Part shown: piece after piece, positions 22,004-56,868 of the stretch | Numbering within the stretch: position 1 is the stretch's first letter | Layout of the letters: every line of letters starts with the position of its first letter | DNA from: Bacteroidota bacterium | GTDB lineage: Bacteria; Bacteroidota; Ignavibacteria; Kapaibacteriales; NICIL-2 | Assembly: GCA_019695345.1 (NCBI GenBank) | Contig: JAIBAE010000012.1 | Span: forward strand, 3,732-67,731 | Length of the DNA: 64,000 nucleotides | Reading direction: 5' to 3' | Notes under the pieces: generated by a model | The model's input: the letters and a program-made list of their open reading frames with translations, nothing else | Told to the model about the DNA's origin: nothing | The model's database searches: none | Made by a program: the position numbers and the translations under genes

Positions 22004-22004
22004 C
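21982..22004 (+). repeat. attL-type core: 3' end of tRNA-Leu
   Basis: GGTTCAAGTCCCGCCTTCCGCAC. The last 13 nt are identical to 56856-56868, and 19/23 nt match 56846-56868. Confidence 0.75.
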
Positions 22005-34541: not shown

Positions 34542-34586
34542 GCTACCTATAAAGCATCATCTGTTTTGTAGGTAGCTTTGTTTTCT
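34542..34586 (+). terminator. Hairpin + T-rich tract between 33592 gene and the ECF sigma gene
   Basis: GCTACCTA-N19-TAGGTAGC followed by TTTGTTTTCTT. Confidence 0.4.
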
Positions 34587-34637
34587 TGGCATTGTGTGGT
34601 ATTTTATGGTGGGTTCCACCTTCTAAAGTTGTTGAGT

Positions 34638-40188: not shown

Positions 40189-41055
40189 ATGAAGTATTTT
40201 TGGTTTACCGTTGTTTACGTACTTGCCATAAGCATACAAACAACAACTATGCAGGCACAGGCAACGTTTGCATCTACGATTGATGAGACGCGGTTTGATG
40301 ATTCAGTTAAGGTATTGGGAATAGGCGGTGTAGATACAGATGTAAAAAGAAAAGGGTGGATATCCAATACATACTCACTAGCTAACAATAATCATTTCCA
40401 ATTGATTAACAATGCTTCTGCCAGCATACCAGCTTTCGACAGTTTGTCAGCCACGGGGGGGTATGTTGAGATTCTTGGAATAAATACAAAATCACCATTC
40501 CGTTTTAGTGTCGGCGCACAAGGAGCCATTAAAAACGATTCATTGCCAAATGAATTTACAGCAAAACTGTTAGCATTAAAAAAAATGTTAAATGGCGGTG
40601 GAAACATAGTCCTGAATATCTCTTTATATCCTGCAACATATTTCAATAAAGATCGCTCTTTAATTCCAATGTTTTATTGGGGCATTAATCTGTCTGGTTT
40701 TACAGATGTAAAGGTACTTAACTCGAAAGAATCAAGACCGGCAAGAGGGCTACAAGGAAGTATAGAAACAGATCTACGATTATTATCTGTAGAAGCTCAG
40801 GATTTTAATGGTAAAAAAACTAATGTGAGTATTGGTATAAGGGGAAAAGCATTATGGAATGTTGCAAACAATCAATTCATTGATAAATACTCAACCAACT
40901 ATAATTTTGATAACATAAAAATGGCTACTTTATCCGTGCTCATTAAATACTATAAAATTGACCTTCAATATACTCACACTTGGGCTCCAGATACAATAAT
41001 ACCAATAGGTTCAGGAGATATGTTTACAATTTCTGTATCTCCAGATAATTTTTAG
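40189..41055 (+). CDS. Putative outer-membrane beta-barrel protein
   Basis: I use ATG 40189, giving the signal MKYFWFTVVYVLAISIQTTTMQAQA. It has alternating-hydrophobic strands and a C-terminal ...FTISVSPDNF with terminal Phe. Confidence 0.55.
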   Translation: MKYFWFTVVYVLAISIQTTTMQAQATFASTIDETRFDDSVKVLGIGGVDTDVKRKGWISNTYSLANNNHFQLINNASASIPAFDSLSATGGYVEILGINTKSPFRFSVGAQGAIKNDSLPNEFTAKLLALKKMLNGGGNIVLNISLYPATYFNKDRSLIPMFYWGINLSGFTDVKVLNSKESRPARGLQGSIETDLRLLSVEAQDFNGKKTNVSIGIRGKALWNVANNQFIDKYSTNYNFDNIKMATLSVLIKYYKIDLQYTHTWAPDTIIPIGSGDMFTISVSPDNF

Positions 41056-41113
41056 GAATGTTTTACCATTCTAAAAATCGGAAACAATTTATAATAACTA
41101 TCTAAGGACTTTT

Positions 41114-42637
41114 ATGAAGTATTTTCAAACAACTCTTCTCTTAGTACTATTATGTACAGGAACAGTATTTTCCCAACAAGATGCAAGCGATATGATTGAA
41201 CGTGTATTGCCAAGCACGGTAACGGTAACAGTTAAAGAGCGTGTAAATGCTTCAATACCATTTGGTTTTGCAGGTGTAGGTGAGAGCGATAACCCCGAAA
41301 CCGTCGAGCGCACCAAGTTGTACGAAGCCGCTTATACATTGGGGTATAAGTTCGATGTGATTGGTAGTGGCTTTGCCGTAGAAATTAATGGCAAGAAATA
41401 TATTATAACCAATGCTCACGTTGCCGAAGCAATCCTTGATAAGGAAATAGAATGTATTGGGGCCGATAACACAACATATAAAATGAAACTGCTTGGTGCA
41501 GATAGATTTTATGATATAGCAGTATTAGAGTTTCTTGATAACACCGCAATCAAACCTCTTACTTTCAGAACAAAACCATTACGTATAGGACAAACAGTAT
41601 TTGCAATTGGGGCTCCTTCTGGGTATTCTAATACGGTAACACAAGGTACTGTTAGTGGTTTAAATCGCCTTACAACAAATTCAGTAGCTACCGATAGAGG
41701 GATGGGCGGTTATGGTTTTGTTCAGCATACAGCAGGTATATACCATGGTAACAGTGGGGGTGCTTTGCTCGATGCACAAGGCAACATCTGTGGTATAAAT
41801 TCTCAAGGTCATTACGACGGACGTGATGGAGTTATAGCATCAATCAATTTTGCAATCAATACCGATGTTGTTCAAAAAGTTGTGAACGATATTGTTATTA
41901 GCCCCGACCACAGGTATCAACGAATGTATTCCGGTATTGCTGTCTCAGCAATAAGCGATGTATATTCCGATTCCCGGTTTGTTGTGATAACAGGAGTTCA
42001 CAACAATTCACCTGCAGGTGAATATAAGGAACGACTAAAGAATACACTGCTCTTATCAATCAACTCTTCCGATGTCCATAATCTTTTAGAATGTACAATT
42101 GCATTTGAGAAAGTAGCTCCCGGGAAACCCATAACATTAGTAGTTATTAATTCAAACCGTAAAAGAGATACAGTTACTATTACAACAACAACGTTAACCG
42201 AAACGGCATTAGAGCAAGTAGCGGATTTAGCATTAGCCAATGATACAACAGTAGCCATAAAGAAGAATCAGGATATACTTACAATGGTTGTTAACGAAAT
42301 GGAAGAAGGTAAATCGTTATACACTACAGCAGGTTCCGGCAAAAAGAATAAAACCGAACAACCAAAAAAATCAGTAGCGACTAAAGTTGAATACACAGTA
42401 AAGGGTATGGGGTATTATGATAGTTACGACGGCGATATAGTTGGTACGCCGTACATAGTGAAAAACAAAGCTGATATTGGAAAAGCATTCAGGATTATGG
42501 CAAATGTTTGGAATCAAGATAGATATGGTAGAGACGTACCAGTGTATATGGGATTCTTTAAACCAAAAAGCATTGCATCGTACGATAGCCCCGTGTTCTA
42601 CACATACAAAATCAACTTCCCAACAATTTACTATTAA
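41114..42637 (+). CDS. Exported HtrA/DegP-like S1C serine protease with PDZ-like region and unknown C-terminal domain
   Basis: Signal peptide. Catalytic triad contexts ITNAHVAEA (His), RFYDIAVLEF (Asp), GNSGGALLD (Ser). Confidence 0.85.
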   Translation: MKYFQTTLLLVLLCTGTVFSQQDASDMIERVLPSTVTVTVKERVNASIPFGFAGVGESDNPETVERTKLYEAAYTLGYKFDVIGSGFAVEINGKKYIITNAHVAEAILDKEIECIGADNTTYKMKLLGADRFYDIAVLEFLDNTAIKPLTFRTKPLRIGQTVFAIGAPSGYSNTVTQGTVSGLNRLTTNSVATDRGMGGYGFVQHTAGIYHGNSGGALLDAQGNICGINSQGHYDGRDGVIASINFAINTDVVQKVVNDIVISPDHRYQRMYSGIAVSAISDVYSDSRFVVITGVHNNSPAGEYKERLKNTLLLSINSSDVHNLLECTIAFEKVAPGKPITLVVINSNRKRDTVTITTTTLTETALEQVADLALANDTTVAIKKNQDILTMVVNEMEEGKSLYTTAGSGKKNKTEQPKKSVATKVEYTVKGMGYYDSYDGDIVGTPYIVKNKADIGKAFRIMANVWNQDRYGRDVPVYMGFFKPKSIASYDSPVFYTYKINFPTIYY

Positions 42638-42789
42638 CGTATACCCTTGGTTGTGGTCTTGCGATTGTCCCTAACTGCTATCGCAAGACCGCACCGATTG
42701 TATATGTATAATAGTTTCTTACTGTGTGGGAGAGAAAGTTGATATTGTTGAAATTTATATATCAATAACCATTACATTTTGAGGGACGT

Positions 42790-44529
42790 ATGAAACCATA
42801 TAAGCTCGCACTTCTGATTGTTTGCTTGCATATACTTAGTATGGGGGCGTGTTGCCAATGCCCTACAACACTATTATCCGAATCGAGTACCAAAAACAAG
42901 AAGGAAATAGAGGAACTGTTACGAACAATACATTACTATTCGGGCTATGGTGATGTTCCTTTGCCTACATTTTGTTTCAGACCAGAACCAGATAAATATT
43001 CAGATAGGAATGGTAAAGAAGTACCTGGCGCATACTACGATGGCGATAGATCTATTGTGATTTATGAAAAATTATACAACGAAGTAAAACAAAAATTTGG
43101 TACAACTGCTAGAGATGCTTTTGCCTATGTTATAGCTCACGAGTTAGCACACTACTTCCATAATCACAACACAAGCAAGTGGATAAACGGCAAACTGACC
43201 CTAAAACTATCATTTGGTTTTGCAACTGCACATTTGACTGATATGCAAGGAGTGGCAGTCAATGATACAAACAACAGCAGGTTGATTGTTGCTGAACACG
43301 ATGCTGATGCAACTGCCGCAATGTGGTGTTACCGTGCGGGGTTTAACCTTAAAAAAGTAAGTAACGAGATGGAATACATTTACAGTACGTATAATTTGCC
43401 AGACAATGATTTGGTTAAATATGGATACCTTCCGTTACGTATTCGGAAAAAAGGATTTAGCGAGGATATTCTGAAAATGGCTCAACAAGCTGCGCATTTG
43501 TTATCGTTTATTGAGTACGCAGTTGCTGTGCAAGATTGGAGTACAGCACAAATGCTATTCAAGTATCTTGATAAATATGAACAAGCATGGTTGCGTACCC
43601 CCGAAATAGAAAATATGTGGGGTGTAATGTTGGCACAGTGGGCATTAACAGAGATGAGTAAAAATGGATTTGCATCGCATCTTCATTATGCATATTGCTT
43701 CCCGTTTACAATGCAACAACCATCTTTATCTACCAGTAAAGGTTCTGCGGAAGAAATCACAGCATTGTTAGACTCAGCTGAGCATCATTGTTCTACGGCT
43801 ATAAAAAATTCAGATTCAACTTACACTGCCGCTTATATCAATATGGGGTTAATTGCCGTATTGCAGAATAACCTACAAAAGGCAAAGCGTTGGTTACAGG
43901 ATGTACACCTTGCTTCCATACCCGATGAACAACTTGCCGCACTGCATATTGCCCGTGGCATTTACGCATTACAGGTTAACAAAACCGATATTGAAACTGC
44001 ATTGAATTTGTTCAAGCAAGCAAAATTTACGTTACCTGTTGTTGCTGAAAACAACGTCAGGTTATTAACTACTACATCAATTCCACACACTGCTCTTTCT
44101 AACAAAAAAGTACCAACGCAAACATTTCTCAACTGGGATAAACCGGATACCATAAAAATTTTCCTTGATACTAACATCCATACTGTAAGGAATAAGATGG
44201 ATACATTGCTCATACGTTCATATCTGCTTTCCGGCAACAAAGATGTTCGATGTACCTATTGCACAATACATAGTCCTAAACCAAAAGTATTTGAAACAAT
44301 GAAATATAAACCGAGTATGGTTGAAGGGCTACAACCTAATAGTAATGGCGATTATGAGTATGCCGAATTTCGAAAAAAGTTTGGTGATAGCGATATGGCA
44401 ACAATTACTAACGGAAGAACAATGATTGCTTATACATTGCCAAATAACGAACACCATAATACACTAATAGTTGTTGTGAATAATGATAATCAATGTATCG
44501 AAGAAGTTTGCCAATGGCGCAACTGGTAA
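42790..44529 (+). CDS. Lipoprotein with M48-like HExxH zinc-metallopeptidase motif and TPR-like region (BepA-like architecture)
   Basis: Lipobox-like LSMGAC. VIAHELAHYFHNH, then AEHDADATAAMWCYRAGF (downstream E/D ligand region). TPR-like AAYINMGLIAVLQNNLQKAKRWLQ. Confidence 0.65.
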   Translation: MKPYKLALLIVCLHILSMGACCQCPTTLLSESSTKNKKEIEELLRTIHYYSGYGDVPLPTFCFRPEPDKYSDRNGKEVPGAYYDGDRSIVIYEKLYNEVKQKFGTTARDAFAYVIAHELAHYFHNHNTSKWINGKLTLKLSFGFATAHLTDMQGVAVNDTNNSRLIVAEHDADATAAMWCYRAGFNLKKVSNEMEYIYSTYNLPDNDLVKYGYLPLRIRKKGFSEDILKMAQQAAHLLSFIEYAVAVQDWSTAQMLFKYLDKYEQAWLRTPEIENMWGVMLAQWALTEMSKNGFASHLHYAYCFPFTMQQPSLSTSKGSAEEITALLDSAEHHCSTAIKNSDSTYTAAYINMGLIAVLQNNLQKAKRWLQDVHLASIPDEQLAALHIARGIYALQVNKTDIETALNLFKQAKFTLPVVAENNVRLLTTTSIPHTALSNKKVPTQTFLNWDKPDTIKIFLDTNIHTVRNKMDTLLIRSYLLSGNKDVRCTYCTIHSPKPKVFETMKYKPSMVEGLQPNSNGDYEYAEFRKKFGDSDMATITNGRTMIAYTLPNNEHHNTLIVVVNNDNQCIEEVCQWRNW

Positions 44530-44573
44530 ATAAGTAAGTACAAAAAGATTGATATACATTTGGTTACAATGAT

Positions 44574-47500
44574 ATGAAAACTCAACTTCACATACTGTTT
44601 ATTTGTTGTGTTATATTCACACTATGTAATACTTATACAAGTAAAGCGCAACCTGATCAACCACAAACTCCACCATCCACCCCAAAAGGTGAGAAGTATG
44701 CGATAGTGATGGCTACAAATAGATATATTGCTTTTCGTACTTTAAACTATGCAGAAGAAGATGCCAGATTAATAAAAAAAATAATAGAAGACGACAGCAT
44801 AATAGGAATAGGTGAGACGAAAAGCGATACTTACAATAAACACTGTTACTTTTATTTGGACACGAATGTTACACCAAGCAATTTTTCGACAGCGTTAAAA
44901 CAAATTGGGAACCAAATTGCGCAAAATCCAAATAAACTAAATCACCCACCCGACACTTTATTTTTTTACTTTTCAGGTCATGGTTTTTTCGATGAAGAAA
45001 ACGATTTGTATTACTTGTGTGGTTACAACGCAGAAAAAACTGGAACAACGGCAGTTTGGGAATTAAAAACTCTTTGGGGCAGGTTAAATAAATTTGCAAA
45101 AAGTTGTAATACTGTAGTGAATGTAGTGATTGATGCATGCCATTCAGGTGGCGTACATAAAGCATCTATTAATGGCGAAGATAAGAAACCACAATGTACT
45201 TTTATTATTTCCACAAAAGACACTTCATCGTCTTTCGAAGATAAATGTTGGGGAGGTGGACACGGTGTTTTCACATACTATCTTGCCCGAGGAATTGTAG
45301 GAGAGGCAGACGAAGATAAAAACGGAGTAATTCAATTATCAGAATTAAAAAAATACTTAAACAACTCATTCAAATCAGATAAATGTTTAAATCAAATTGG
45401 TAATGGTAAGATTCAAAAGCCAAGTATCCTTACAAATAATACAGAAGATGGTGATGAACTAGTAATAAGTAAAAGCCCCGTAAAGAGTTTGGTAAAAGAT
45501 TTTGTTCTGAATCTTGGGAAAGAAAATAATCCTTCAATTGTTGTTATCAATAAAGGCGATAACGATGATAAAAATTTGAAAAAATCTGTTGATTCTGTTC
45601 TTACGTTACTAGAATCAGATAATAAAATATTGTCTGCCTCACAGGTGAGGTATGATTATGTTTTAGAACACGCAAGTAGTGAATATCAAAAGCTCAGTGC
45701 AAGAAATTTTTTACAAAACCAATACCAACGCTATGCTGAAAATTCAATCAATGCCTTCTTCCACGGTGATATAACCCGAGATTACGGTACTGAATTTAAA
45801 CAAGGTAGTGCATACCTTGACTCTGCTATGAAACTTCTTCCCGAAACAACAGAAGATTTAATTGACCTTCGTGATTTTATGTATGGCTATGCAATTGTAT
45901 ATAACTCTGATAGCAGGTTATACTATAAATCAGATTCACTATTTAAAGAGTGTGTAAAGCGTAAACCGCAGTTCACCTACCCATATTACGGTTTAGCCGT
46001 GTTAAATGAGGAACGTTGCCTATATGATACCGCAGAGAAGTTATTTAGAAAATGTATAGCATTATCACCCGAGTGGATGAGACCGTATAATAGCTTGGCA
46101 CAAATGTATAGAGACAGGCACTACTTTAAGCAAGGCCTTGCATTGGCAGACACGGCAATAAAAAGAGACTCTGTAAACCCGAACCCATACATAACCAAAG
46201 CAAACTGTTTATTGGATCTGGGGCATTACAAGCAAGCAGAAGAAGCATACAACAAAGCCCTACAACTCAATAACAACCGTAATAACAATATAACGGCGCG
46301 AATTAAGCGCAATCTGGGAATTTGTTATCGTGAACGTGAAGCAAACACAACATACCGCAAATACCTCAAAGAATCATTTGAGGCAGATTCAACTTACATT
46401 TTTACATTACAGAATTTAGCTGAGTTAAGCAGTCAGGATACAAGTGTTTATCATGGCATTCATACATGGAATACGTACTACAAAAAGATATTGAGTTTAC
46501 CGGAAACTGCTGAAAAGTATTATGTGCTTGGGAGTTTTAATCAATGGTGTGCAGGTAAAATTCCGAATGATAAAGGAGATAGCATAAAACGTTATATGCT
46601 CCTTGACACCGCTAAACGCTATCTGGTGCAAAGTATTGACCTTGACACCTTTAATGTTGATGCATATAAAAAACTATTTTGGACTTATTGGGATTACTCA
46701 TATTACGCATACTATCTAAACGATAAAAGGTTTATCAATAAGAATGATGCAGACGCATTTCAGGTGATTTCAAAAATTGATACCCTTTCAAAAAACCATG
46801 TATCTGAGATACAATATGCAATTGGTTACTACTACTTTTGGAAGAAAGCTGACACTACAAAAGCAATTGAATACTACAAGAAAGCACTACAACTTGAGCC
46901 AGGATACTATTCACCAATAAGAAAACTTGAAGAAATTTATAGCAAGTATGACTCAGCAATACTACAAATGTATTATATGGCAGATAGTACTAATTGTTCA
47001 CCAGTTACAAGCCATGAACTTGCTATGTATTATGAAAGAATTGGTAAACAAGATTCAGCCATGCGAAACTATAAAAATTGTATTGTCTTAGACTCATCAT
47101 ACTTTAAGGTATATCCAAATTTAGCCATACTATCTATGGCAAATGATGTAGAAAAAACCTTAGAATACTGCAAAACGTACATGAAACATAAATCTGATGT
47201 GTTTACACCGTCCAATAATCAAAGGGAATCATTAAATGTTGCAAAAAATGAAATTGAGAATAACAGAAATGTAGAAAGATCTTTATCTGATTTATTATTG
47301 GCAGAATCAGTGAGGTCATGGCGTTTAAAACGATTTGGAGAATGTTTGAGATATGCAGAGGTTTCGTTCGAATTAAATCAAAATAACACAAATGCGATAT
47401 TGCAACTGGCAAAATTATATTACATGATGAATGATAGGCATAAATTGTATGAAATAATCACTTCAATAAAAATAAATAATGAGAATATTTTTGATGCGGA

Positions 47501-47930
47501 TCAGAAGATTATGTATAGTAAACTACAATTACTCGTTGCTATTCAAAATAACGACACTTTAAAAGTAAGGAAGTGTTTAAACTATCTAAATTCAAAGGAT
47601 GGTGATGATAGATTTGATGAAATACCTTGGTTACAACACATAAAAAGATTGTTAGATATAGCTTCATTAACAACTGGAAATACAAAACAACAATTCAAAC
47701 ACATTGCAAATAATGGAATAGTACTCAGTAGCGAAATGAATGTTGATATGAAAACAGGACAATCACTTTCTCAAAATAACTTTTTTTCGATTGTTAAGAT
47801 AAAATCAAAAAATATTCAAGCCATAAAAGGTGAATTTGAACAATCCTTACTTGAAGATGGCTTCCTGTTGAATAATAACACGCGAAGAATACTCTTTGAG
47901 AATGACGAGCAATATCATTTAAACGAATAA
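44574..47930 (+). CDS. Exported caspase-family (peptidase C14) protease fused to a long TPR array
   Basis: Signal peptide. KYAIVMATNRY; His site LFFYFSGHGF; Cys site VVIDACHSGG; EF-hand-like loop DEDKNGVIQLSEL after the catalytic domain; ~700 aa of TPR-like repeats. Confidence 0.85.
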   Translation: MKTQLHILFICCVIFTLCNTYTSKAQPDQPQTPPSTPKGEKYAIVMATNRYIAFRTLNYAEEDARLIKKIIEDDSIIGIGETKSDTYNKHCYFYLDTNVTPSNFSTALKQIGNQIAQNPNKLNHPPDTLFFYFSGHGFFDEENDLYYLCGYNAEKTGTTAVWELKTLWGRLNKFAKSCNTVVNVVIDACHSGGVHKASINGEDKKPQCTFIISTKDTSSSFEDKCWGGGHGVFTYYLARGIVGEADEDKNGVIQLSELKKYLNNSFKSDKCLNQIGNGKIQKPSILTNNTEDGDELVISKSPVKSLVKDFVLNLGKENNPSIVVINKGDNDDKNLKKSVDSVLTLLESDNKILSASQVRYDYVLEHASSEYQKLSARNFLQNQYQRYAENSINAFFHGDITRDYGTEFKQGSAYLDSAMKLLPETTEDLIDLRDFMYGYAIVYNSDSRLYYKSDSLFKECVKRKPQFTYPYYGLAVLNEERCLYDTAEKLFRKCIALSPEWMRPYNSLAQMYRDRHYFKQGLALADTAIKRDSVNPNPYITKANCLLDLGHYKQAEEAYNKALQLNNNRNNNITARIKRNLGICYREREANTTYRKYLKESFEADSTYIFTLQNLAELSSQDTSVYHGIHTWNTYYKKILSLPETAEKYYVLGSFNQWCAGKIPNDKGDSIKRYMLLDTAKRYLVQSIDLDTFNVDAYKKLFWTYWDYSYYAYYLNDKRFINKNDADAFQVISKIDTLSKNHVSEIQYAIGYYYFWKKADTTKAIEYYKKALQLEPGYYSPIRKLEEIYSKYDSAILQMYYMADSTNCSPVTSHELAMYYERIGKQDSAMRNYKNCIVLDSSYFKVYPNLAILSMANDVEKTLEYCKTYMKHKSDVFTPSNNQRESLNVAKNEIENNRNVERSLSDLLLAESVRSWRLKRFGECLRYAEVSFELNQNNTNAILQLAKLYYMMNDRHKLYEIITSIKINNENIFDADQKIMYSKLQLLVAIQNNDTLKVRKCLNYLNSKDGDDRFDEIPWLQHIKRLLDIASLTTGNTKQQFKHIANNGIVLSSEMNVDMKTGQSLSQNNFFSIVKIKSKNIQAIKGEFEQSLLEDGFLLNNNTRRILFENDEQYHLNE

Positions 47931-47957
47931 GTTATTTTTAAAAAAAGGTTAAAAACT

Positions 47958-49652
47958 ATGATAAAAATACTCCAGTACATCTCCACTTTTATACTGTGCG
48001 TGGCGATATTACATTCCAATGTAAATGTTAAAAACGGCAACTTTTTTATAGGATATGTTGACGTATATTTTAACGATAACTTTAAAATTGAGCGTGTGTA
48101 TAATTCTAAAACTGATTTTAAAGGAATGTTTGGTAGGGGTTGGGGATGCGAATACGAAATGTATCTGACTACACTTCCCGATGGTACTATTATGCTGCAC
48201 GAATACGGAGGTGGAGCAGAAAATATCTTCAAACCACGTGGTTACTCGCCTATTTCAGTTACAAATGCAGTCAACAACATAGTTGAACTTGAAATACAAT
48301 ATGGTATCACGCAACCCGAACAACGACTTAATAGAATGAGTAGCTTACAGGATAATTCAAACAGGCGAACCGATGCGTGGAAAGCACTACTCAAAAAGGG
48401 TGTTAAATGGTTCGAAATAGCAACGGGTACAGTATTAACATCGTATGATTTTTCAGCCCAAAAAATTTTAGTAACAGATACATCCTATAACAGAATAAAT
48501 GGAGACATTACTGAAGTGTTTAATAAAAAAGGTCAGTTTGTAAAGCGTATTGTAAAGGATGGCTCCTATATCGTATTAGAGTACGATGCAAATGGTCGTA
48601 TATCCCGTATGAGCAATGATAAAATGAATACCTTAAAATTTCATTATAACAGTATCGGACTGGTATCAAAGATTATTAGTAATAGTACTACTAAATCGGG
48701 AGCATTCAAACAATCCTCATATACGTATGATACTTTACAGTACGAGTTGATTGAATCAAATGATGCTGGTAATAATATATTCAAATACTCATATTCAAAA
48801 GATGGGTATCATAATCTTGTTCAAATTTTGTATCAAGATAATACCACAATGCAAATAGGATATTGGGGTGCCGAAAAGTTTGTAAATGTAAAATCAGCCA
48901 AAGAACGTGATGGAAGATACTACGAATATGATTATATACTACGTAAGAAAGTTGATGAAATCAACCAAAACTATACCGTAACAGTAAGTGTTTATTTGGA
49001 TACTACAAAAACAAATGAAATTTCCAATAGTACATATCTATATATTTACAGAACTTCAAGCTCAGGCAGAGAATGGACTTACTCCCTGAAATCAATTATT
49101 GATGGTGATACTACCGAAACCCGTTACCACGAGAAAACAGGGCTACCTGTGTTTATTGCGAAGCATGGCGATACAACAAAATTCGATTATACACCCAAGG
49201 GGGATGTAACATATAAAGAAACCTCTTATTCAATAAAGTGGATTGATTATTCTTCGTGTAATAAAGTAAGCCGAGTTAAGGAAACAGAAAAGTATAGCAG
49301 AAAACCCGATACAACATGGAGTACATTTGAATACGATTCACTCTGCAACCTAACTATGGCAAAAAATTCAGATGGAAAATTACTGTCATTAAAATATGAT
49401 AACAAGGGGCACATTACTACCCTGTTAGATGAGGAAAACAATCAAACAATTACATTCGAATACAACCAAATCAATAAACCGATATCAATCACTGTTATTG
49501 GTGTTGGTACTATAAAAGTAATCTATAATACCGACAACGAAATTGAAAAGGTTGATAGCGATGGTGGGCGTACTGTTGCAACAAAAGTTACAAGGATATT
49601 TCAAAACCTGCTGGATGTTATACGTCCTGCAGGTGTGTCATTAAATTTTTAG
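47958..49652 (+). CDS. Short RHS/YD-repeat protein without a recognisable C-terminal toxin tip
   Basis: The N-terminus NVNVKNGNFFIGYVDVYF...RVYNSK...GMFGRGWGCEYE is like Rhs N-terminal modules. YD repeats include YDANGRISRMSND, YDNKGHITTLLDEENNQTITFEYN and YTPKGDVTYKE. Confidence 0.7.
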   Translation: MIKILQYISTFILCVAILHSNVNVKNGNFFIGYVDVYFNDNFKIERVYNSKTDFKGMFGRGWGCEYEMYLTTLPDGTIMLHEYGGGAENIFKPRGYSPISVTNAVNNIVELEIQYGITQPEQRLNRMSSLQDNSNRRTDAWKALLKKGVKWFEIATGTVLTSYDFSAQKILVTDTSYNRINGDITEVFNKKGQFVKRIVKDGSYIVLEYDANGRISRMSNDKMNTLKFHYNSIGLVSKIISNSTTKSGAFKQSSYTYDTLQYELIESNDAGNNIFKYSYSKDGYHNLVQILYQDNTTMQIGYWGAEKFVNVKSAKERDGRYYEYDYILRKKVDEINQNYTVTVSVYLDTTKTNEISNSTYLYIYRTSSSGREWTYSLKSIIDGDTTETRYHEKTGLPVFIAKHGDTTKFDYTPKGDVTYKETSYSIKWIDYSSCNKVSRVKETEKYSRKPDTTWSTFEYDSLCNLTMAKNSDGKLLSLKYDNKGHITTLLDEENNQTITFEYNQINKPISITVIGVGTIKVIYNTDNEIEKVDSDGGRTVATKVTRIFQNLLDVIRPAGVSLNF

Positions 49653-49701
49653 TATAAGTTCAATCAACTAACATCCTTCTCACAACATAATAGGAATTCT
49701 G

Positions 49702-50178
49702 ATGCTTCCATCAAAAGTACATTGCTATAACTGCAACAACGAGTTAGAACTTGATTTCAACGAGCGTAAGAATCATTCGTATGTATGTCCGGTATGTAAA
49801 AGCGGTTGGCTTGACCCCAAGCAAAACACTACGTTGGAAGAACAAGTATCCTGCGGCAAATGCAACAGCATGATAGAACTCTCCGAACAAGAAAGAAACA
49901 ACGTATCATTTACATGCCCGGTATGTTCAACCCCATGGGCAACAAACAAACAAAATGCAATGCCAATAGTAAGTAATGCTCAAACTGTAAATACTCAAGA
50001 GGAAGCAAACAGTATGATAACAAAAGGGTTACTGTTTCTTGTTGGGGGGATACTTATAACAGGTATCACATATGCATCTGCATCTGAAGGCGGAGGAACC
50101 TACTTTGTTATGTACGGACCTATTATTTATGGTGTTATCACTTTAGTTCGCGGGCTTTCCATGAAATCAAACTCATAA
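49702..50178 (+). CDS. Double zinc-ribbon protein with C-terminal membrane anchor
   Basis: Two copies of Cx2C-N17-18-Cx2C (CYNCNNELELDFNERKNHSYVCPVCKSGW / CGKCNSMIELSEQERNNVSFTCPVCSTPW), then two TM helices. Confidence 0.65.
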   Translation: MLPSKVHCYNCNNELELDFNERKNHSYVCPVCKSGWLDPKQNTTLEEQVSCGKCNSMIELSEQERNNVSFTCPVCSTPWATNKQNAMPIVSNAQTVNTQEEANSMITKGLLFLVGGILITGITYASASEGGGTYFVMYGPIIYGVITLVRGLSMKSNS

Positions 50179-50237
50179 TGCACGATTCTGTATAAGCGTA
50201 TTCAAAACATAGTATTTTCGATAAAAGAATATTGCTT

Positions 50238-50302
50238 AACCACCTCAGCCGAAGCAAACGTTCAGCACGCCAACCATGTGCGAACCGTTCCTCCTGCTTC
50301 GC
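50238..50302 (+). repeat. GC-rich intergenic element, forward copy (pair 3, left)
   Basis: AACCACCTCAGCCGAAGCAAACGTTCAGCACGCCAACCATGTGCGAACCGTTCCTCC. Confidence 0.6.
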
Positions 50303-50482
50303 TATCTTTGATAAGAATTGAATTAGAATTACCAATTACCAATTACCTTATCTGTGAGTACCAATCAAAATTTTGCTTTCATACAAACACATATTCAGGC
50401 ACTTGATTTCTTGCTGTCGATACTCATTGAAACACCACAATCTGATGAATGTCTAAAAGAATGTACGTTAATAAAGATGTAA

Positions 50483-50547
50483 TGCTGAACGCTTGGCTCG
50501 CACAGGGTTTGCGTGCTTGAGTTTTCGTTTAGGCAGAGGCGGTAACC
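50483..50547 (-). repeat. GC-rich intergenic element, reverse copy (pair 3, right)
   Basis: Reverse complement is GGTTACCGCCTCTGCCTAAACGAAAACTCAAGCACGCAAACCCTGTGCGAGCCAAGCG... Confidence 0.6.
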
Positions 50548-50616
50548 ATAAATTTCTCACCTAAAAGTTTCTACAATTACCATATCGGAAAATTATTTTT
50601 TCTGCCTGTAAAATAG

Positions 50617-50646
50617 TTGTCAACCATGTTCTGTGTAGAGTATTCC
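50617..50646 (+). promoter_or_regulatory. Bipartite motif TTGTCAACCA-N13-GTATTCC, site 3
   Basis: Lies 59 nt upstream of ATG 50705. Confidence 0.5.
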
Positions 50647-50704
50647 GTTCTGTTGTAACCGGTACAACAAAAAACACTTACAAACTCAATTTTTAGGAAT
50701 ACTT

Positions 50705-51664
50705 ATGAAAACTATATTTAATGTACTCGCAGTTTTTGTTTTTATCTTTTATACAGTAAGTTCATTTGCTTACGAAAAAGGTCCTTCAGTTTCTTGGTTT
50801 AATGCTAAAGACGGTCTTAAAGAAATGGCAACACAGCACCGTCCGGCTATTATTGATGTAGGTGCTTCGTGGTGTGTATGGTGCAAACGTATGGATACAT
50901 ACACCTATACCGATAGCGCAATAATAGGTAAGATTGAATCCCGCTTGATTCCTATCAGAATAACAACCGATGAAGACGATATGAAAACGGTTATTCGGTA
51001 TAAAGGACAAGATATAACCATTGAAGAGTTTGTTGAAAAGTTTAAGATTGAGGGATACCCTTCAACAATTTTTCTAAACGAGGATGGAGAGGTTCTTGGA
51101 GTAAACGACGGATATATGAATGTAGAAAAACTGAACAATTATCTGGTCTATTTTGAATTACCCGTGCGTCCTGATATGAAAATTGATGAATACGTATTAC
51201 GTGAACAGTTGAAGTTAAACCCAAATGATATCAACCTGAATTATAGTCTGGCAAAACTGTTAAGCAACAAACAACATTTCGAGGAAGCAATTCAGCTGTT
51301 TGATAAGGTTTTACTAAGCGATGAACTTGAGCAATCGGACATTTTACAAATTCAATTCAGAAAAGGCGTGTTGTTATTACAATACAAAAAAGATTATCAG
51401 AAAGCATATACATGCTTTGATAAAATGGGCACTCAATCGGATACTAAATTAGTAAAAGCAGTATCATCGTTTTTTAAGGCTGTTGCATTAGTAAAACAGA
51501 GTAAAACTGAGTTTGCTAAAGCACAATTAAAGATATATGGTAAAAACATGAAAGCTTTGAACAAAACAACAGTTGAGTTTATCGAACTGATTGAACCTTA
51601 CTATAATGTTCAGCAAGAGGCACAAGAAATAGAAACTCTGATTCAATCAATGAAAATTGCATAA
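50705..51664 (+). CDS. Exported thioredoxin-fold (CxxC) protein fused to TPR-like repeats
   Basis: Signal peptide. AIIDVGASWCVWCKRMD (CVWC redox motif) ... EGYPSTIFLNEDGEVLG. TPR-like C-terminal half. Confidence 0.75.
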   Translation: MKTIFNVLAVFVFIFYTVSSFAYEKGPSVSWFNAKDGLKEMATQHRPAIIDVGASWCVWCKRMDTYTYTDSAIIGKIESRLIPIRITTDEDDMKTVIRYKGQDITIEEFVEKFKIEGYPSTIFLNEDGEVLGVNDGYMNVEKLNNYLVYFELPVRPDMKIDEYVLREQLKLNPNDINLNYSLAKLLSNKQHFEEAIQLFDKVLLSDELEQSDILQIQFRKGVLLLQYKKDYQKAYTCFDKMGTQSDTKLVKAVSSFFKAVALVKQSKTEFAKAQLKIYGKNMKALNKTTVEFIELIEPYYNVQQEAQEIETLIQSMKIA

Positions 51665-51751
51665 TAAACTACCGTTAAGCCCGGTGCTGGATATTCTCTG
51701 TGCCGGGTTTTTGTTTAACACATCATTTACTTATTATAATAACTACATACT

Positions 51752-52666
51752 ATGAAAACGATATTTATACTTTTGATAATTCTTATTCTCAACTCTGCAA
51801 GTTATGCACAATGCTTTATTAGCGGAACTGGTTCAATGGGGCAGTTATACAAAACAACTGGTAATTATGTGATGGATTGTAAATTTAACTACTCCAAAAC
51901 GGAGCTCGAGCAAACATTTGGAGTGTTAGTTGATTTGTATGTTTATAATGACAGTTATTCGCCAAATGCACTTGCTTCATATCCTATGCAATACAATTAC
52001 GATGGTACTGTTGCCTTTGGATATACGTTATTAACCGGAACACTATGGAATGCAAACAAAGGAGAATATGCAGTAGCAGGAGTAATGGCGCACGAATTTG
52101 CCCATATATTACAGATAAAGAAACATTGTACCCTAACACAAACACAAAAAGAATTACAGGCAGATTACTTGGCAGGATATTACTTCGGAACAAAATCATA
52201 TCTTTCGTACGGTTTGCGAAATTTTGCAACGTCATTATACGAATTGGGAGATTACAATTTTTGGGATCCTAATCATCACGGCACCCCTACTGAACGCGTT
52301 AATGCAATGATGGCAGGATACAAAATGGCTGGTAAAAGTATTGATGTGGCTTATCGAGAAGGTGTGAAATATGTTTCAGGTATAAATAACAACGATGATG
52401 AGAATGAAGATGCCGAGGAAGAAGATGACGATGAATACTCGTTTAACAAAACAGATTATGGCGTTGATATGTGTTGTCTGAGTGTAAAAAAAAGTTCCAT
52501 ACTAACAGGACATGATAATAAACCTTCATGCTATTATCCGGTGAAAGATTATTACTTTATCGCACTAAGAAATTCTGATTTACATAAAGTGATGGCTTTT
52601 ATCTATGTTTGCGATGAAAAATATCACAAATTATCCAATCAACCATTAATCAGTACACTGACATGA
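51752..52666 (+). CDS. Exported YpfJ-like neutral zinc metallopeptidase with acidic linker
   Basis: VMAHEFAHILQ...ELQADYLAGYYFG...HHGTPTERVNAMMAGY matches the PF04228-type pattern (from memory). Acidic run NNNDDENEDAEEEDDDEY. Confidence 0.7.
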   Translation: MKTIFILLIILILNSASYAQCFISGTGSMGQLYKTTGNYVMDCKFNYSKTELEQTFGVLVDLYVYNDSYSPNALASYPMQYNYDGTVAFGYTLLTGTLWNANKGEYAVAGVMAHEFAHILQIKKHCTLTQTQKELQADYLAGYYFGTKSYLSYGLRNFATSLYELGDYNFWDPNHHGTPTERVNAMMAGYKMAGKSIDVAYREGVKYVSGINNNDDENEDAEEEDDDEYSFNKTDYGVDMCCLSVKKSSILTGHDNKPSCYYPVKDYYFIALRNSDLHKVMAFIYVCDEKYHKLSNQPLISTLT

Positions 52667-53385
52667 AATCAATATCAATCTTAGCGTTAGCATTTACAAT
52701 GTTATTATTAACAAGCTGCAACTTTAGGACTGAATATGGTAATAACAGTATCCCTAAGTTTACAAGGACGGTAGTTAAAGTGCCGGAGATACCGATTCCA
52801 CCAGTACAATCGCTATACACTACTATTTTGGATGAAAAGTTTCCTGTTATATGTGGCCACAGGGAATTATTTGGTACTGCTAAATCACGATTAGAAAAGT
52901 TAGGATGGAAAGAGTATAATCCAATTCAGGTTGATATGAAAATCGGACAAGTGGGCTTTAGCATGAAAAAAGTACTTGATGTGAACCGAGGAATTGAAGC
53001 GTTGGCACAGGTAACATATATCGAAACCACTGTAATGCAAACCACATTAAGAAGGGATTCGGCGTTACTTGTTTTGAAATTAAATAATGCTCCGGCAATT
53101 CTTTCATATACAGATAATACGATTACCTTAACAAGAGATACTTTAGTTTCAATATGTCCCCAAAGAGAAATTGCACAAGGGTTTGGTTTTGCATCTACTG
53201 ATGATTTAACATCAGATGAAAAGTTAATCGTGAATAAGTTCGGTAGTAATTCTTTTAGGGCGCTTCAACTGATTGATGGTAAAAACACGCTAGAACAAAT
53301 TGCAAGTAAAAGTGGAATGAGTATCGTAGAGATAAGAGACATAATGCAGTTTATGAAAGAGAAGGGCTTTATTGAAATTATGTAG
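52663..53385 (+). CDS. Hypothetical lipoprotein with wHTH-like C-terminal segment
   Basis: Lipobox LLLTSC with a 4-nt overlap with the upstream gene. The C-terminus LIDGKNTLEQIASKSGMSIVEIRDIMQFMKEKGFIEI looks winged-helix-like. Confidence 0.55.
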   Translation: MKSISILALAFTMLLLTSCNFRTEYGNNSIPKFTRTVVKVPEIPIPPVQSLYTTILDEKFPVICGHRELFGTAKSRLEKLGWKEYNPIQVDMKIGQVGFSMKKVLDVNRGIEALAQVTYIETTVMQTTLRRDSALLVLKLNNAPAILSYTDNTITLTRDTLVSICPQREIAQGFGFASTDDLTSDEKLIVNKFGSNSFRALQLIDGKNTLEQIASKSGMSIVEIRDIMQFMKEKGFIEIM

Positions 53386-53397: not shown

Positions 53398-54732
53398 TTG
53401 TTAAGTTCTAATATTCAAATGTTCCTGCTCGTTATTTGTAAGTATATTGATTTCTTTGTGCATAAACTTAAGTTCATACTCCTTGTATTTATAACTTTCA
53501 TTTGTTGTGTACTGATTAGCTGCACTACGGTTCTGTATCCATCTCGTGTACCTGTTTCCGACCAACAATACAACAAGTTACACCGCGGTGTTACCTTTCA
53601 TAATTTGTTTGCAACAACTAATAATACGCCAATCGAAAACACAGCAACAAGACGTTTACGAATGGAGGTTTTGGATTCTTTAGTTACAAGATTTCAGCCG
53701 CTGGGTTTAACATGTATCCGTTTTACAATAGATCCTTATCTGTTATTTAACATACACAATTACCAGGATTTAGACTCCATCCCCGAAGTACAATCAGAGT
53801 CCGAGCAGTTTAAAATCTTAAATAAAAGCGTATTAGATGATATACTTCGATCCATACAAATTTGCAAATCAAGAAAGGTGTGTGTTGTTGTTACCATGTA
53901 CACAGAGAATACTCATGGTGCATTAGGCAACAATGTTAAATATCAATTATACCATAATGCCCGGTTTGCTCATACACTTGGTAAAATGTGGACGCTTATA
54001 GCCGGACAAATTTCGAGTATATATTCTCCGGACGACGTAATGTTCGAAATAATTAACGAACCCAACTATCGGGGTTCATTCTACAACGAGTATGTGAATA
54101 AAGATACCAACAAGGTTATGAGAGGTGTCAATTGGTGGGACGTTGCACAACAGCCAACAGCCAGAATGTGGTTATTCACACAGGAAGTTGTGATAAGCTA
54201 TATTAGAGGTGCAGCACCGAACCACACAATAATTGCATCCTTCGATGATAACTCTCACCTCGATGCATTACCATATAGCGATATCAGTCTGGATAAAAAT
54301 GTTATTTACGCAGTACATTATTATGAACCCGATGTTTTTACACATCAAGGTGCATTGTTCCATCCGTTTGCAAAGTACATTAGTACACTACAATACCCAT
54401 ACGACTCAGTTAACGTTGCCTCCGTACAAAAAAGTATTCCTGATAGCTTACGCTGGATATTGAATAACTACCGTGATTTTAATAAATCTACAATTCTAAC
54501 CTCATTGATGAATGCAAAAAAATGGGCAGATAAACATAATGTAAAGATTTGGATTGGTGAATTTGGTTTGTATTCTAAAAACTCGCCAACTGAATCTTTA
54601 AAGCGATATTATCAGGATTTCATCGACGCCGCAAATATGAATAATTTGGGAATTGCTGTTTGGGATTATGATGACTCATTATTCTGCAACAAATTTACAC
54701 AGCCGGGACTGGACCAATTTTGGAAAAAATAA
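53398..54732 (+). CDS. Glycoside hydrolase family 5 (cellulase-type) enzyme
   Basis: Acid/base FEIINEPN and nucleophile IWIGEFG contexts. N-terminal hydrophobic anchor. The true start may be ATG 53419. Confidence 0.8.
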   Translation: MLSSNIQMFLLVICKYIDFFVHKLKFILLVFITFICCVLISCTTVLYPSRVPVSDQQYNKLHRGVTFHNLFATTNNTPIENTATRRLRMEVLDSLVTRFQPLGLTCIRFTIDPYLLFNIHNYQDLDSIPEVQSESEQFKILNKSVLDDILRSIQICKSRKVCVVVTMYTENTHGALGNNVKYQLYHNARFAHTLGKMWTLIAGQISSIYSPDDVMFEIINEPNYRGSFYNEYVNKDTNKVMRGVNWWDVAQQPTARMWLFTQEVVISYIRGAAPNHTIIASFDDNSHLDALPYSDISLDKNVIYAVHYYEPDVFTHQGALFHPFAKYISTLQYPYDSVNVASVQKSIPDSLRWILNNYRDFNKSTILTSLMNAKKWADKHNVKIWIGEFGLYSKNSPTESLKRYYQDFIDAANMNNLGIAVWDYDDSLFCNKFTQPGLDQFWKK

Positions 54733-56845: not shown

Positions 56846-56868
56846 GGTTCGTTTTCCGCCTTCCGCAC
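56846..56868 (+). repeat. attR-type core: degenerate copy of the tRNA-Leu 3' end
   Basis: GGTTCGTTTTCCGCCTTCCGCAC. It cannot form the T-arm, so it is a remnant rather than a gene. Confidence 0.75.

What the first reader, a model, noticed from the sequence alone, without database searches (positions are those of the whole stretch)
40189..52666. Co-directional cluster of exported peptidases from four catalytic classes with barrel, RHS-like, Zn-ribbon and Trx-TPR partners: candidate undescribed extracytoplasmic proteolytic system
Seen in sequence: a tightly spaced plus-strand run with gaps of 28-153 nt up to 50178. It encodes an OM-barrel-like protein, an HtrA-like S1C protease (intact H/D/S), an M48-like HExxH lipoprotein with TPR, a caspase-family C14 protease fused to ~700 aa of TPR, a toxin-less RHS/YD protein and a membrane-anchored double zinc ribbon. 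After a 527-nt spacer come a CxxC thioredoxin-TPR protein and a YpfJ-like Zn-peptidase. All except the Zn-ribbon protein start with signal peptides or lipoboxes. Established knowledge: caspase/CHAT plus TPR plus trypsin-like protease combinations have been predicted by comparative genomics to form bacterial conflict or cell-suicide systems, but those are usually cytoplasmic and coupled to STAND/NTPase sensors. Here I see no NTPase and everything looks exported. Inference: this is either a periplasmic or surface protease cascade (activation, maturation or defence) or a secreted degradative arsenal, carried on a mobile island with its own ECF sigma.
Basis: partly seen in the sequence, partly recalled or inferred. 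Interest (0 to 1): 0.8.

Follow-up and report, generated by a model that had tools for sequence, protein, structure and literature searches.

The report
Strain-variable exported caspase–metalloprotease cassette
On a mobile island of a Kapabacteria genome, a BepA-like zinc protease and a caspase-like protease, both exported, form a gene pair that recurs from Bacteroidota to Geobacter, often beside sigma/anti-sigma genes, and here sits in a 7-kb cassette that differs completely between strains of one species.

Summary
The barrel call is untested and the YpfJ-like call is weak.

The eight-gene "system" is not conserved as a unit, but a smaller core is.
- The M48-like/TPR protein belongs to an unnamed family of about 550 aa. 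In 44 loci from at least seven phyla, 25 carry a caspase-fold protease nearby: 13 adjacent, 3 fused.
- At least 11 of these loci place the family directly after a sigma-like gene and a zf-HC2 anti-sigma gene.
- HtrA-like S1C joins the group in three loci.

In conspecific genomes the 35-kb tRNA-Leu island is 99–100% identical. The exception is window 42639–49660. There M48L + C14-TPR + mini-RHS is replaced by C14 + M48L + TPR-CHAT.

The RHS-like protein is a Bd0109-type protein, which in Bdellovibrionota ends Tad-pilus operons. It is not a conserved partner.

Best reading: an exported proteolytic module, probably wired to ECF sigma signalling and polymorphic between strains. Its biological role is unproven.

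The parts
21923..22004 (+). tRNA-Leu(GAG). Its 3' end is the left attachment repeat of the island.
   Evidence: ARAGORN, Rfam, direct repeat D4.
34578..35234 (+). ECF sigma factor of the island.
   Evidence: Sigma70_r2, r4 and r4_2.
35231..36154 (+). Probable anti-sigma factor. It overlaps the sigma gene by 4 nt, has one TM segment and a weak TonB_C-like C-terminus.
   Evidence: The anti-sigma role is inferred from position and topology only.
40189..41055 (+). Exported 288-aa protein of unknown fold. It belongs to the conserved frame left of the cassette.
   Evidence: No Pfam or NCBIfam hit. Signal-peptide-like N-terminus. Present in both island variants.
41114..42637 (+). HtrA/DegS-like S1C serine protease with one PDZ and a unique C-terminal region of about 130 aa. 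It is the conserved left flank of the cassette.
   Evidence: 98-99.8% identical across strains.
42639..49660 (+). Variable 7.0-kb cassette, allele A. Other strains of the same species carry an unrelated 7.4-kb allele B here.
   Evidence: blastn breakpoints, gene content, mismatch map.
42676..42697 (+). Core of a repeated intergenic element of about 70 nt, found at the left edge of both cassette alleles.
42790..44529 (+). M48-like (HExxH) lipoprotein with a TPR domain and a C-terminal beta domain. Its architecture resembles BepA. It belongs to an unnamed family of about 550 aa.
44574..47930 (+). Exported C14 caspase-like protease (His136/Cys189) with about 780 aa of TPR/helical repeats.
47958..49652 (+). 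Toxin-less mini-RHS/YD protein (DUF6531 plus a half-size YD shell) of the Bd0109 type.
49702..50178 (+). Double zinc-ribbon protein with a C-terminal two-TM hairpin. It is the conserved right flank, but 2.6% diverged between alleles, so it travels with the exchanged tract.
50705..51664 (+). Exported DsbH/DsbD-gamma-like thioredoxin (WCVWC) with TPR.
51752..52666 (+). Exported small zincin (HEFAH ... ELQAD) distantly related to the catalytic core of the M48-like family.
52663..53385 (+). Lipoprotein (LTSC lipobox) of unknown function, in the conserved frame.
53398..54732 (+). GH5 cellulase-family glycoside hydrolase with an N-terminal membrane or signal segment.
55444..56658 (-). Tyrosine integrase of the island (Arm-DNA-bind_5, SAM_5, Phage_integrase).
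56846..56868 (+). Right attachment repeat. 19 of 23 nt match the tRNA-Leu 3' end, with a 13-nt exact core.

Best explanation
The locus is an exported proteolytic module on a 35-kb tRNA-Leu integrative island of Candidatus Kapaibacterium.

Core: a cognate pair made of a BepA-like M48/TPR lipoprotein ('M48L') and a large caspase-fold (clan CD) cysteine protease carrying a repeat array.

Shown:
- All parts carry export signals (heuristic check only).
- The catalytic residues are intact.
- The M48L + clan-CD pair is conserved across phyla and fused in three lineages.
- The pair lies in a 7-kb cassette with two unrelated alleles in one species, between a conserved HtrA/DegS-like S1C-PDZ protease and a membrane Zn-ribbon protein.
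- M48L genes elsewhere often follow a sigma-like gene and a zf-HC2 anti-sigma gene.

Inferred mechanism:
1. After Sec export, M48L docks through its TPR domain on the repeat-bearing protease. It processes that protease, either activating it or keeping it in check, as BepA both matures and degrades its client.
2. The TPR array of the caspase-like enzyme selects the ligand or substrate.
3. The S1C-PDZ protease adds a DegS-like cleavage step.
4. The DsbH-like thioredoxin keeps the catalytic cysteine reduced in the periplasm.
5. The output is coupled to the ECF sigma/anti-sigma pair upstream, by regulated proteolysis or as its regulon.
6. The allele swap changes specificity. This fits an envelope-level sensing or conflict role better than housekeeping.
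For: Conserved pair:
- The M48L family has 238 representatives at E<=1e-3, mostly about 450-600 aa, with the motif SLNALAxxLGHELxHYYxxHxW.
- 135 of 149 members have an N-terminal hydrophobic segment.
- In 44 genome loci with an M48L gene, 25 carry C14 or CHAT: 20 within two genes, 13 adjacent, 3 fused.
- Pfam confirms the partners: WD40-C14, C14-TPR, TPR-CHAT, C25, and M48L-TPR-C14-PEGA-FGE fusions.
- Partner caspases carry signal peptides.
- One reverse case: L070 has C14-TPR, then C1-MORN, then M48L (HMM E 1e-84).

Trio with S1C: L033 (TPR-CHAT + S1C-PDZ + M48L), L035 (C25 + S1C + M48L) and L049.

Sigma link:
- A zf-HC2 motif occurs in 11 of 231 ORFs within 3 genes of M48L, against 1 of 274 farther away.
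- A sigma-like gene lies one gene upstream of it in nine of them, and farther upstream in L043.
- In L027 and L031 Pfam shows the anti-sigma fused to an M6 protease; L028 has the same N-terminus and length.

Cassette:
- Flanks are 99.95% (left) and 98.8% (right) identical, while the middle shares no DNA similarity.
- Both alleles contain M48L (22% identity, E 3e-9) and C14 (24% identity, H and C aligned).
- Mismatches pile up in the last 150 bp of S1C and in the Zn-ribbon gene.

BepA is the top Foldseek hit, though weak: E 2.6e-3, probability 0.97. The same island carries a type I R-M system.
Against: - There are no expression, localisation or activity data.
- Three of four sampled neighbourhoods of caspase-TPR homologues lack M48L, so the pair is not obligatory for such caspases.
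- Some M48L genes sit beside M6 metalloproteases, or beside no protease at all.
- The sigma-like proteins of the other loci are not close relatives of the window's ECF sigma. The window's sigma lies 6.6 kb upstream, separated by six unrelated genes.
- The 44 loci are not phylogenetically independent.
- PADLOC finds no known defence system.
- The BepA structural match is weak (TM about 0.2).
- Only two alleles were seen.
- The Zn-ribbon, thioredoxin, small zincin and 40189 have no support from other genomes.
Confidence: 0.5

Rival explanations
1. Secreted degradative arsenal. The proteases and the GH5 hydrolase are nutritional or predatory exoenzymes that happen to be carried together on an island. 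M48L is simply one more exoprotease.
For: Everything is exported. A GH5 cellulase-family gene is in the same run. Many M48L-positive genomes are gliding or predatory Bacteroidota such as Saprospira, Aureispira, Microscilla and Lewinella.
Against: Degradative enzymes do not need huge TPR or WD40 arrays, or fusion of two proteases into one chain. They also do not need a sigma/anti-sigma gene directly upstream. No T9SS C-terminal sorting domain was found in the window proteins. Whole-cassette replacement that keeps the same enzyme types points to specificity rather than bulk digestion.
Confidence: 0.15
2. Surface-protein sorting or envelope-assembly machine. The clan-CD enzyme acts as a transpeptidase or processing enzyme for surface proteins, and M48L acts as its BepA-like quality-control partner.
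For: The Geobacteraceae operons add an SLH lipoprotein, a FlgT_N-like protein and a transglutaminase. One partner is C25 gingipain-like. From general knowledge, not tested here: clan-CD enzymes such as PorU and the GPI8 transamidase act as sorting transpeptidases. The mini-RHS relatives are linked to pili.
Against: No candidate substrates with a common sorting signal were identified. The location on a recently mobile island, and allelic replacement within a species, are unusual for core envelope assembly. No SLH or transglutaminase gene is in the window.
Confidence: 0.15
3. Chance collection of unrelated exported island cargo with no functional link between the genes.
For: Five of the eight genes (mini-RHS, Zn-ribbon, Trx-TPR, 304-aa zincin, 40189) were never found with the pair in 44 other loci. 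The caspase-TPR protein has no relative above 43% local identity (21-28% over longer alignments).
Against: M48L/clan-CD adjacency occurs in 20 of 44 loci, with three fusions across phyla. Both cassette alleles independently carry M48L plus C14. From PMC3501461, the richest genome has about 4 caspase genes per 1000 proteins. That gives an expectation of well under 0.1 per 16-gene locus.
Confidence: 0.1
4. Cytoplasmic caspase/trypsin/TPR abortive-infection conflict system of the STAND/NTPase-coupled type.
For: The caspase domain scores best, though below cutoff, against the NCBIfam 'caspase, EACC1-associated type' model. The island carries a restriction-modification system.
Against: No NTPase lies between 33592 and 55360. 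All proteases have signal peptides or lipoboxes. PADLOC gives only generic caspase and trypsin hits.
Confidence: 0.03

Closest known systems
DdvA/DdvS of Myxococcus xanthus: an anti-sigma factor with a periplasmic TPR-CHAT domain that controls a CBASS/CRISPR defence island (PMC11506125)
   Same: Both have an extracytoplasmic TPR plus caspase-fold domain associated with an ECF sigma and sit on or next to defence genes. Proteolysis in the periplasm is proposed to release the sigma factor. Allele B of the cassette carries a TPR-CHAT protein.
   Different: Here the caspase-fold proteins are separate exported proteins, not fused to an anti-sigma domain and TM segment. Their His-Cys dyads are intact, whereas DdvA's site is incomplete. 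They come with an M48-like partner that the abstract of the DdvA paper does not mention.
E. coli BepA: periplasmic M48 metalloprotease with a C-terminal TPR domain (PMC7950410, PMC8423444)
   Same: Both have an N-terminal HExxH protease followed by TPR, and both are exported. BepA is the best Foldseek hit in the PDB. BepA's dual role, promoting or degrading one client, is the model for the proposed partner relationship.
   Different: Sequence similarity is marginal (Pfam M48 at 30 bits; 12% identity in the structural alignment). This family has an extra C-terminal beta domain and a distinct motif. It neighbours proteases and anti-sigma genes. No link to BAM or LptD is known.
DegS-RseA-RseP sigma-E pathway, and HtrA/DegP quality control
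   Same: The S1C protease has an intact triad and one PDZ. It scores against the DegS, DegP and AlgW models and structures. An ECF sigma/anti-sigma pair lies upstream.
   Different: All equivalog cutoffs are missed by a wide margin. There is an extra C-terminal region of about 130 aa. No evidence shows that it cleaves the local anti-sigma.
NTPase-coupled caspase/TPR/trypsin conflict systems (Kaur et al. 2020, PMC7159879; 2021, PMC8195603)
   Same: The domain vocabulary is the same (caspase, TPR, trypsin-like). Both are located among defence genes and both show rapid diversification.
   Different: There is no STAND or other NTPase, no effector-associated adaptor domains were detected, and all parts are predicted to be exported.
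Bd0109 of the Bdellovibrio hit locus: a periplasmic YD-repeat protein co-transcribed with tad genes and the small Bd0108 (PMC3818213)
   Same: The mini-RHS is 38-42% identical over its full length to a family of about 560 aa. In Bdellovibrionota that family is the last gene of Tad/Flp operons and is followed by a small ORF. This matches the published Bd0109/Bd0108 arrangement and size (65 kDa).
   Different: In the window there are no Tad genes and no Bd0108-like small ORF. Identity with Bd0109 itself was inferred from synteny and description, not from its sequence.
Survey of prokaryotic caspase homologues and their operons (PMC3501461)
   Same: It reports exported or membrane metacaspases, TPR, WD40 and FGE-sulfatase architectures, and 23 operons with other proteolysis domains, sigma factors or OmpA.
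   Different: No specific M48/TPR partner family, fusion or allelic cassette turned up in my keyword searches of that paper.

Membership tests
HtrA/DegP/DegS (peptidase S1C) | His-Asp-Ser triad in a trypsin fold | tested here: met
   Trypsin_2 at E 2e-27. NAHV, DIAV and GNSGG align with a DegP-like structure.
HtrA/DegP/DegS (peptidase S1C) | At least one C-terminal PDZ domain | tested here: met
   The PDB alignment runs through PDZ1 (query 262-357). Pfam PDZ models were not hit at E 0.01.
HtrA/DegP/DegS (peptidase S1C) | Reaches an NCBIfam equivalog cutoff (DegS, DegP, DegQ) | tested here: not met
   Best scores are 155.7 bits against 416 (Do family) and 122 against 423 (DegS).
Peptidase M48 / BepA-like | HExxH zinc site plus a downstream acidic ligand | tested here: met
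   H117, E118, H121 and D173 are invariant and E169 is at least 90% conserved in 46 members.
Peptidase M48 / BepA-like | Pfam PF01435 gathering score | tested here: met
   30.2 bits against 20.3 for the window protein. Only 21 of 46 family members hit it at E<=1e-3.
Peptidase M48 / BepA-like | Protease domain followed by a TPR domain, with overall fold like BepA | tested here: inconclusive
   TPR is confirmed. BepA 6ait is the top Foldseek hit, but at E 2.6e-3 and TM 0.16-0.22.
Peptidase M48 / BepA-like | Works at the BAM complex on outer-membrane protein clients | not testable with these tools
   No data.
Caspase family C14 (orthocaspase/metacaspase) | p20-like domain with a His-Cys dyad | tested here: met
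   PF00656 at 39.6 bits against 21.4. H136 and C189 sit in columns that are H and C in 95 of 96 sequences.
NTPase-coupled caspase conflict systems (Kaur et al. 2020) | STAND or other NTPase sensor in the same gene or operon | tested here: not met
   No NTPase domain in any ORF between 33592 and 55360.
NTPase-coupled caspase conflict systems (Kaur et al. 2020) | Cytoplasmic components | tested here: not met
   N-terminal signal or lipoprotein segments on all proteases (heuristic only).
RHS/YD polymorphic toxins | YD-repeat beta shell | tested here: met
   The AF2 model (pLDDT 89) matches Rhs cores at probability 1.0. YD_repeat_2x hit.
RHS/YD polymorphic toxins | C-terminal DPxGL aspartyl-protease motif and a variable toxin domain, usually with an immunity gene | tested here: not met
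   The sequence ends in a conserved helix, with no DPxGL and no extra domain. At 564 aa it covers about half of a full cocoon.
Bd0109-type hit-locus protein | Exported DUF6531-YD protein of about 560 aa | tested here: met
   38-42% identity over 96-100% of its length to more than 100 family members.
Bd0109-type hit-locus protein | Last gene of a Tad/Flp pilus operon, followed by a small Bd0108-like ORF | tested here: not met
   This holds in L001-L004. It does not hold in the window, where the neighbours are the caspase-TPR and Zn-ribbon genes.
DdvA-type anti-sigma with periplasmic TPR-CHAT | N-terminal anti-sigma domain and TM fused to the TPR-caspase-fold domain | tested here: not met
   The window C14-TPR and the allele-B TPR-CHAT start with signal peptides only.
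DdvA-type anti-sigma with periplasmic TPR-CHAT | Cognate ECF sigma encoded alongside | tested here: inconclusive
   An ECF sigma/anti-sigma pair is present at 34578-36154, but 6.6 kb upstream of M48L.
tRNA-targeting integrative island | tRNA gene, tyrosine integrase, flanking direct repeats, atypical composition | tested here: met
YpfJ / PF04228 neutral zinc metallopeptidase (for 51752) | Significant match to PF04228 or NF050010 | tested here: not met
   No hit for 51752. It has only HEFAH and a distant profile match to the M48-like family.

The most novel reading that the evidence does not exclude
M48L plus an exported caspase-fold protease, often preceded by a sigma/anti-sigma pair, defines a widespread and so far undescribed class of envelope-level proteolytic sensing or defence modules. 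It would be an extracytoplasmic counterpart of the cytoplasmic caspase conflict systems. In it the repeat-bearing caspase recognises an external or periplasmic cue (phage, competitor or damage), M48L gates its activity, and the signal is passed to a sigma factor. Whole-cassette alleles within a species would then provide alternative recognition specificities.
Probability: 0.3. Interest if true: 0.85.

Novelty: new variant of a known kind. Interest (0 to 1): 0.68.

Why it matters
Bacterial caspase-like proteases are mostly discussed as cytoplasmic suicide or immunity effectors. Their exported forms, with TPR or WD40 arrays, are common but unexplained.

This analysis yields three testable leads:
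- a dedicated partner: a BepA-like M48/TPR family with no Pfam or NCBIfam family of its own;
- a recurrent link to sigma/anti-sigma pairs;
- a natural two-allele system in one species for probing specificity.

If the link to sigma signalling holds, it extends the DdvA precedent (periplasmic TPR-CHAT controlling a defence island) to many phyla.

It also places the Bdellovibrio hit-locus protein Bd0109 in a large Tad-linked family that has a stray member here.

Tried and rejected
- The exact-sequence lookup of the caspase-TPR protein found nothing. A homologue search showed it is an orphan, with no relative above 43% local identity and 21-28% over longer alignments.
- A word-indexed search with the two M48L alleles found only the query itself. 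The exhaustive HMMER search was needed.
- A 46-sequence alignment was too diverse for the locus finder, so a 12-sequence subset was used.
- A metagenome scan with the S1C protein found nothing.
- An ECF sigma lookup returned only a 1.2-kb contig.
- Promoter and terminator scans gave no more than chance.
- Rfam found only the tRNA.
- PADLOC gave no defence-system assignment.
- The L005 508-aa TPR neighbour of a caspase is not an M48L.
- The repeated intergenic element shows no convincing RNA structure.
- No shared promoter motif was seen upstream of the sigma gene and of the cluster.
- Paralogy of the two 4-TM proteins (37365 and 39422) is weak, E 0.003.
- Literature searches found no description of an M48/caspase pair or of ECF-M48L contexts. 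Absence from this library is not proof of novelty.

Full report
**What is there**

The window carries a low-GC island (34-38% against 42-48% in the flanks). It runs from tRNA-Leu (21923-22004) to a tyrosine integrase (55444-56658, minus strand). The tRNA 3' end is repeated at 56846-56868 with a 13-nt exact core.

The island holds:
- a type I restriction-modification system with a RhuM-Fic gene;
- an ECF sigma (34578-35234) and an overlapping, probable anti-sigma gene;
- a co-directional run of exported proteins from 33592 to 55360.

90%-identity clusters of the flanking RsmD and OmpA proteins name the organism as Candidatus Kapaibacterium (Kapabacteria, Bacteroidota).

**Check of the observation**

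The ORFs and spacings are as stated. The domain calls were tested as follows.

| Gene | Result |
|---|---|
| 41114 | HtrA/DegS-like S1C with intact triad and one PDZ |
| 42790 | M48-like HExxH protein with TPR |
| 44574 | C14 caspase with TPR; His136/Cys189 at columns that are H and C in 95 of 96 homologues |
| 47958 | DUF6531-YD protein; confident model (pLDDT 89) matches Rhs cores but covers only about half a cocoon; no toxin |
| 49702 | Four CxxC pairs and a two-TM hairpin |
| 50705 | DsbH-like CxxC thioredoxin with TPR |
| 51752 | Has HEFAH but reaches significance only in a profile comparison with the M48-like family |
| 40189 | Matches nothing |

Export was checked only heuristically.

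**Same island, different middle**

The exact Trx-TPR and YkuD proteins occur on other assemblies of the same species, including a 3.28-Mb contig of GCA_046329015.1. Against that genome:
- window 27899-42638 is 99.95% identical;
- window 49661-59135 is 98.8% identical;
- window 42639-49660 has no DNA match.

The three genes in the window are M48-like 579 aa, C14-TPR 1118 aa and mini-RHS 564 aa. In the other genome they are replaced by a 668-aa C14 protein, a 553-aa M48-like/TPR lipoprotein and a 1157-aa helical-repeat CHAT protein.

The two M48-like proteins are 22% identical (E 3e-9). The two caspase domains are 24% identical, with the catalytic H and C aligned.

Five of the six neighbourhoods shown carry allele B. 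The sixth (L010) carries the window's allele A.

Mismatches between the genomes are concentrated in two places: the last 150 bp of the S1C gene, and the 500 bp to the right of the cassette, which hold the Zn-ribbon gene (2.6%). They then fall to about zero for roughly 5 kb. The exchanged tract is therefore about 42485-50160. The donor locus evidently had the same S1C ... Zn-ribbon frame.

**Is the grouping conserved elsewhere?**

The caspase-TPR protein has no relative above 43% local identity, and 21-28% over longer alignments. Three of four sampled neighbourhoods of its homologues show no partner genes.

The M48-like protein was more informative. An exhaustive HMMER search found 238 cluster representatives of mostly about 450-600 aa. 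They share the motif SLNALAxxLGHELxHYYxxHxW and have invariant zinc-site residues. Pfam covers them only weakly, through Peptidase_M48 and TPR.

A genome scan returned 50 loci from Bacteroidota, Desulfobacterota (Geobacteraceae), Latescibacterota, Gemmatimonadota, Acidobacteriota, Nitrospirota, Planctomycetota and Alphaproteobacteria. Of the 44 with a clear M48-like gene:
- 25 carry a C14 or CHAT protein;
- 20 have it within two genes;
- 13 have it adjacent;
- 3 have it fused.

Pfam confirmed the partner types:
- WD40-C14, C14-TPR and TPR-CHAT;
- a C25 gingipain-like protein;
- M48L-TPR-C14-PEGA-FGE_sulfatase fusions;
- M6 metalloproteases in a minority of loci.

The partners carry signal peptides. 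HtrA-like S1C lies beside M48L in L033 (with TPR-CHAT), L035 (with C25) and L049.

One caspase-TPR homologue context also contains an M48L: L070 has C14-TPR, then C1-MORN, then M48L (HMM E 1e-84).

None of the 44 loci contains a relative of the mini-RHS, Zn-ribbon, Trx-TPR, 304-aa zincin or 40189.

**Link to sigma factors**

In at least 11 loci the M48-like gene is preceded by a protein with an N-terminal zf-HC2 anti-sigma motif. In nine of them a sigma-like gene lies one gene upstream of that protein; in L043 it lies farther upstream. These loci come from seven Geobacteraceae, two Latescibacterota and two Gemmatimonadota.

The motif occurs in 11 of 231 ORFs within three genes of M48L, against 1 of 274 farther away. 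Pfam supports zf-HC2 and Sigma70_r4.

In L027 and L031 Pfam shows the anti-sigma fused to a periplasmic M6 protease. L028 has the same N-terminus and length. This is analogous to DdvA of Myxococcus, an anti-sigma with a periplasmic TPR-CHAT domain that controls a defence island (PMC11506125).

The window has its own ECF sigma/anti-sigma pair. However, it lies 6.6 kb upstream and is not closely related to those sigma-like proteins, so this link is by analogy only.

**The RHS-like gene**

Its relatives are more than 240 clusters, 38-42% identical over their full length. They are almost all from Bdellovibrionota. In L001-L004 the relative is the last gene of a Tad/Flp pilus operon and is followed by a small ORF.

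That is the published arrangement of Bd0109 and Bd0108 in the Bdellovibrio hit locus. Bd0109 is a 65-kDa periplasmic YD-repeat protein co-transcribed with tad genes (PMC3818213).

The window copy therefore belongs to that family but sits in a foreign context. I inferred the identity with Bd0109 from synteny and the published description, not from its sequence.

**Interpretation**

The firm result has two parts. First, there is a conserved, exported pair: a BepA-like M48/TPR protein with a repeat-bearing caspase-fold protease. Second, that pair is embedded here in a polymorphic cassette between conserved frame genes.

BepA is the best structural match, though weakly. It is known to both mature and degrade a single client (PMC8423444, PMC7950410). 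That motivates the proposal that M48L gates its partner protease.

The following remain inferences:
- a DegS-like role for the S1C protease;
- a cysteine-reducing role for the thioredoxin;
- coupling to the ECF sigma;
- a sensing or conflict function.

A degradative arsenal, a surface-sorting machine and chance cargo are the rivals. Chance is excluded for the core pair but not for the five frame genes.

Literature searches found no description of this pair. A general survey notes proteolysis domains and sigma factors in metacaspase operons (PMC3501461).

Noticed in passing
window 1892-1913(-), 19269-19290(-), 31918-31939(+), 36440-36461(-), 42676-42697(+), 57042-57063(-); L007 1565-1586(+): A repeated intergenic element of about 70 nt (TGCTATCGC..GCACCG..~30 nt..GCCGGAGAG) occurs inside and outside the island. 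One copy lies about 40 nt after the S1C stop codon in both cassette alleles. It has no Rfam match and only a weak consensus fold.
   Followed up: partly
window 39286-39317 and 39994-40025: A 32-nt motif containing tandem AATAGAGTAAC lies upstream of the 4-TM gene 39422 and of 40189. It may be a shared regulatory site.
   Followed up: partly
window 38595-38640, 39225-39275, 50240-50300: GC-rich repeats (CCTCnGCCGAAGCAAAC and its inverse) lie in AT-rich intergenic spacers, including the 526-nt gap after the Zn-ribbon gene.
   Followed up: no
window 59136-60019: An 885-bp segment is absent from the otherwise collinear genome GCA_046329015.1. It carries a singleton 230-aa ORF (59281-59973, minus strand).
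   Followed up: no
window 56161-57160: The integrase N-terminus and the attR side are 7-10% diverged between the two genomes, while adjacent DNA is about 0-0.6% diverged. This is a second recombination patch.
   Followed up: no
window 2042-13330: A 3762-aa ORF lies just outside the island. It is followed by an OmpA-family gene (14631-16670). I did not analyse it.
   Followed up: no
window 26986-27132 / 27294-27440 and 27294-28262: A RhuM-Fic gene sits between hsdS and hsdR of the type I R-M system. A 147-nt direct repeat (71% identity) lies at its start.
   Followed up: no
L001-L004 (Bdellovibrionota), genes at 10001-11690: A DUF6531-YD protein of about 560 aa is the conserved last gene of Tad/Flp pilus operons and is followed by a small ORF. 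This matches the Bd0109/Bd0108 hit locus. The family has more than 240 clusters.
   Followed up: partly
L034, L040, L043, L045, L047, L048 (Geobacteraceae): A conserved operon encodes, in order: a sigma-like protein, a zf-HC2 anti-sigma, M48L, an SLH lipoprotein, an unknown protein of about 310-350 aa, a FlgT_N-like protein, a transglutaminase and a WD40-Big-C14 caspase. All appear to be exported.
   Followed up: partly
L030 7299-9983: An nSTAND2-TPR NTPase lies directly upstream of an M48L gene, with an M6 protease downstream, in a Latescibacterota genome. This is the only NTPase seen next to the family.
   Followed up: no
L007 1774-3780: The allele-B 668-aa caspase has an N-terminal domain duplicated in tandem, about 180 aa each with a DxDxDG-like motif. 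It has no Pfam match.
   Followed up: no
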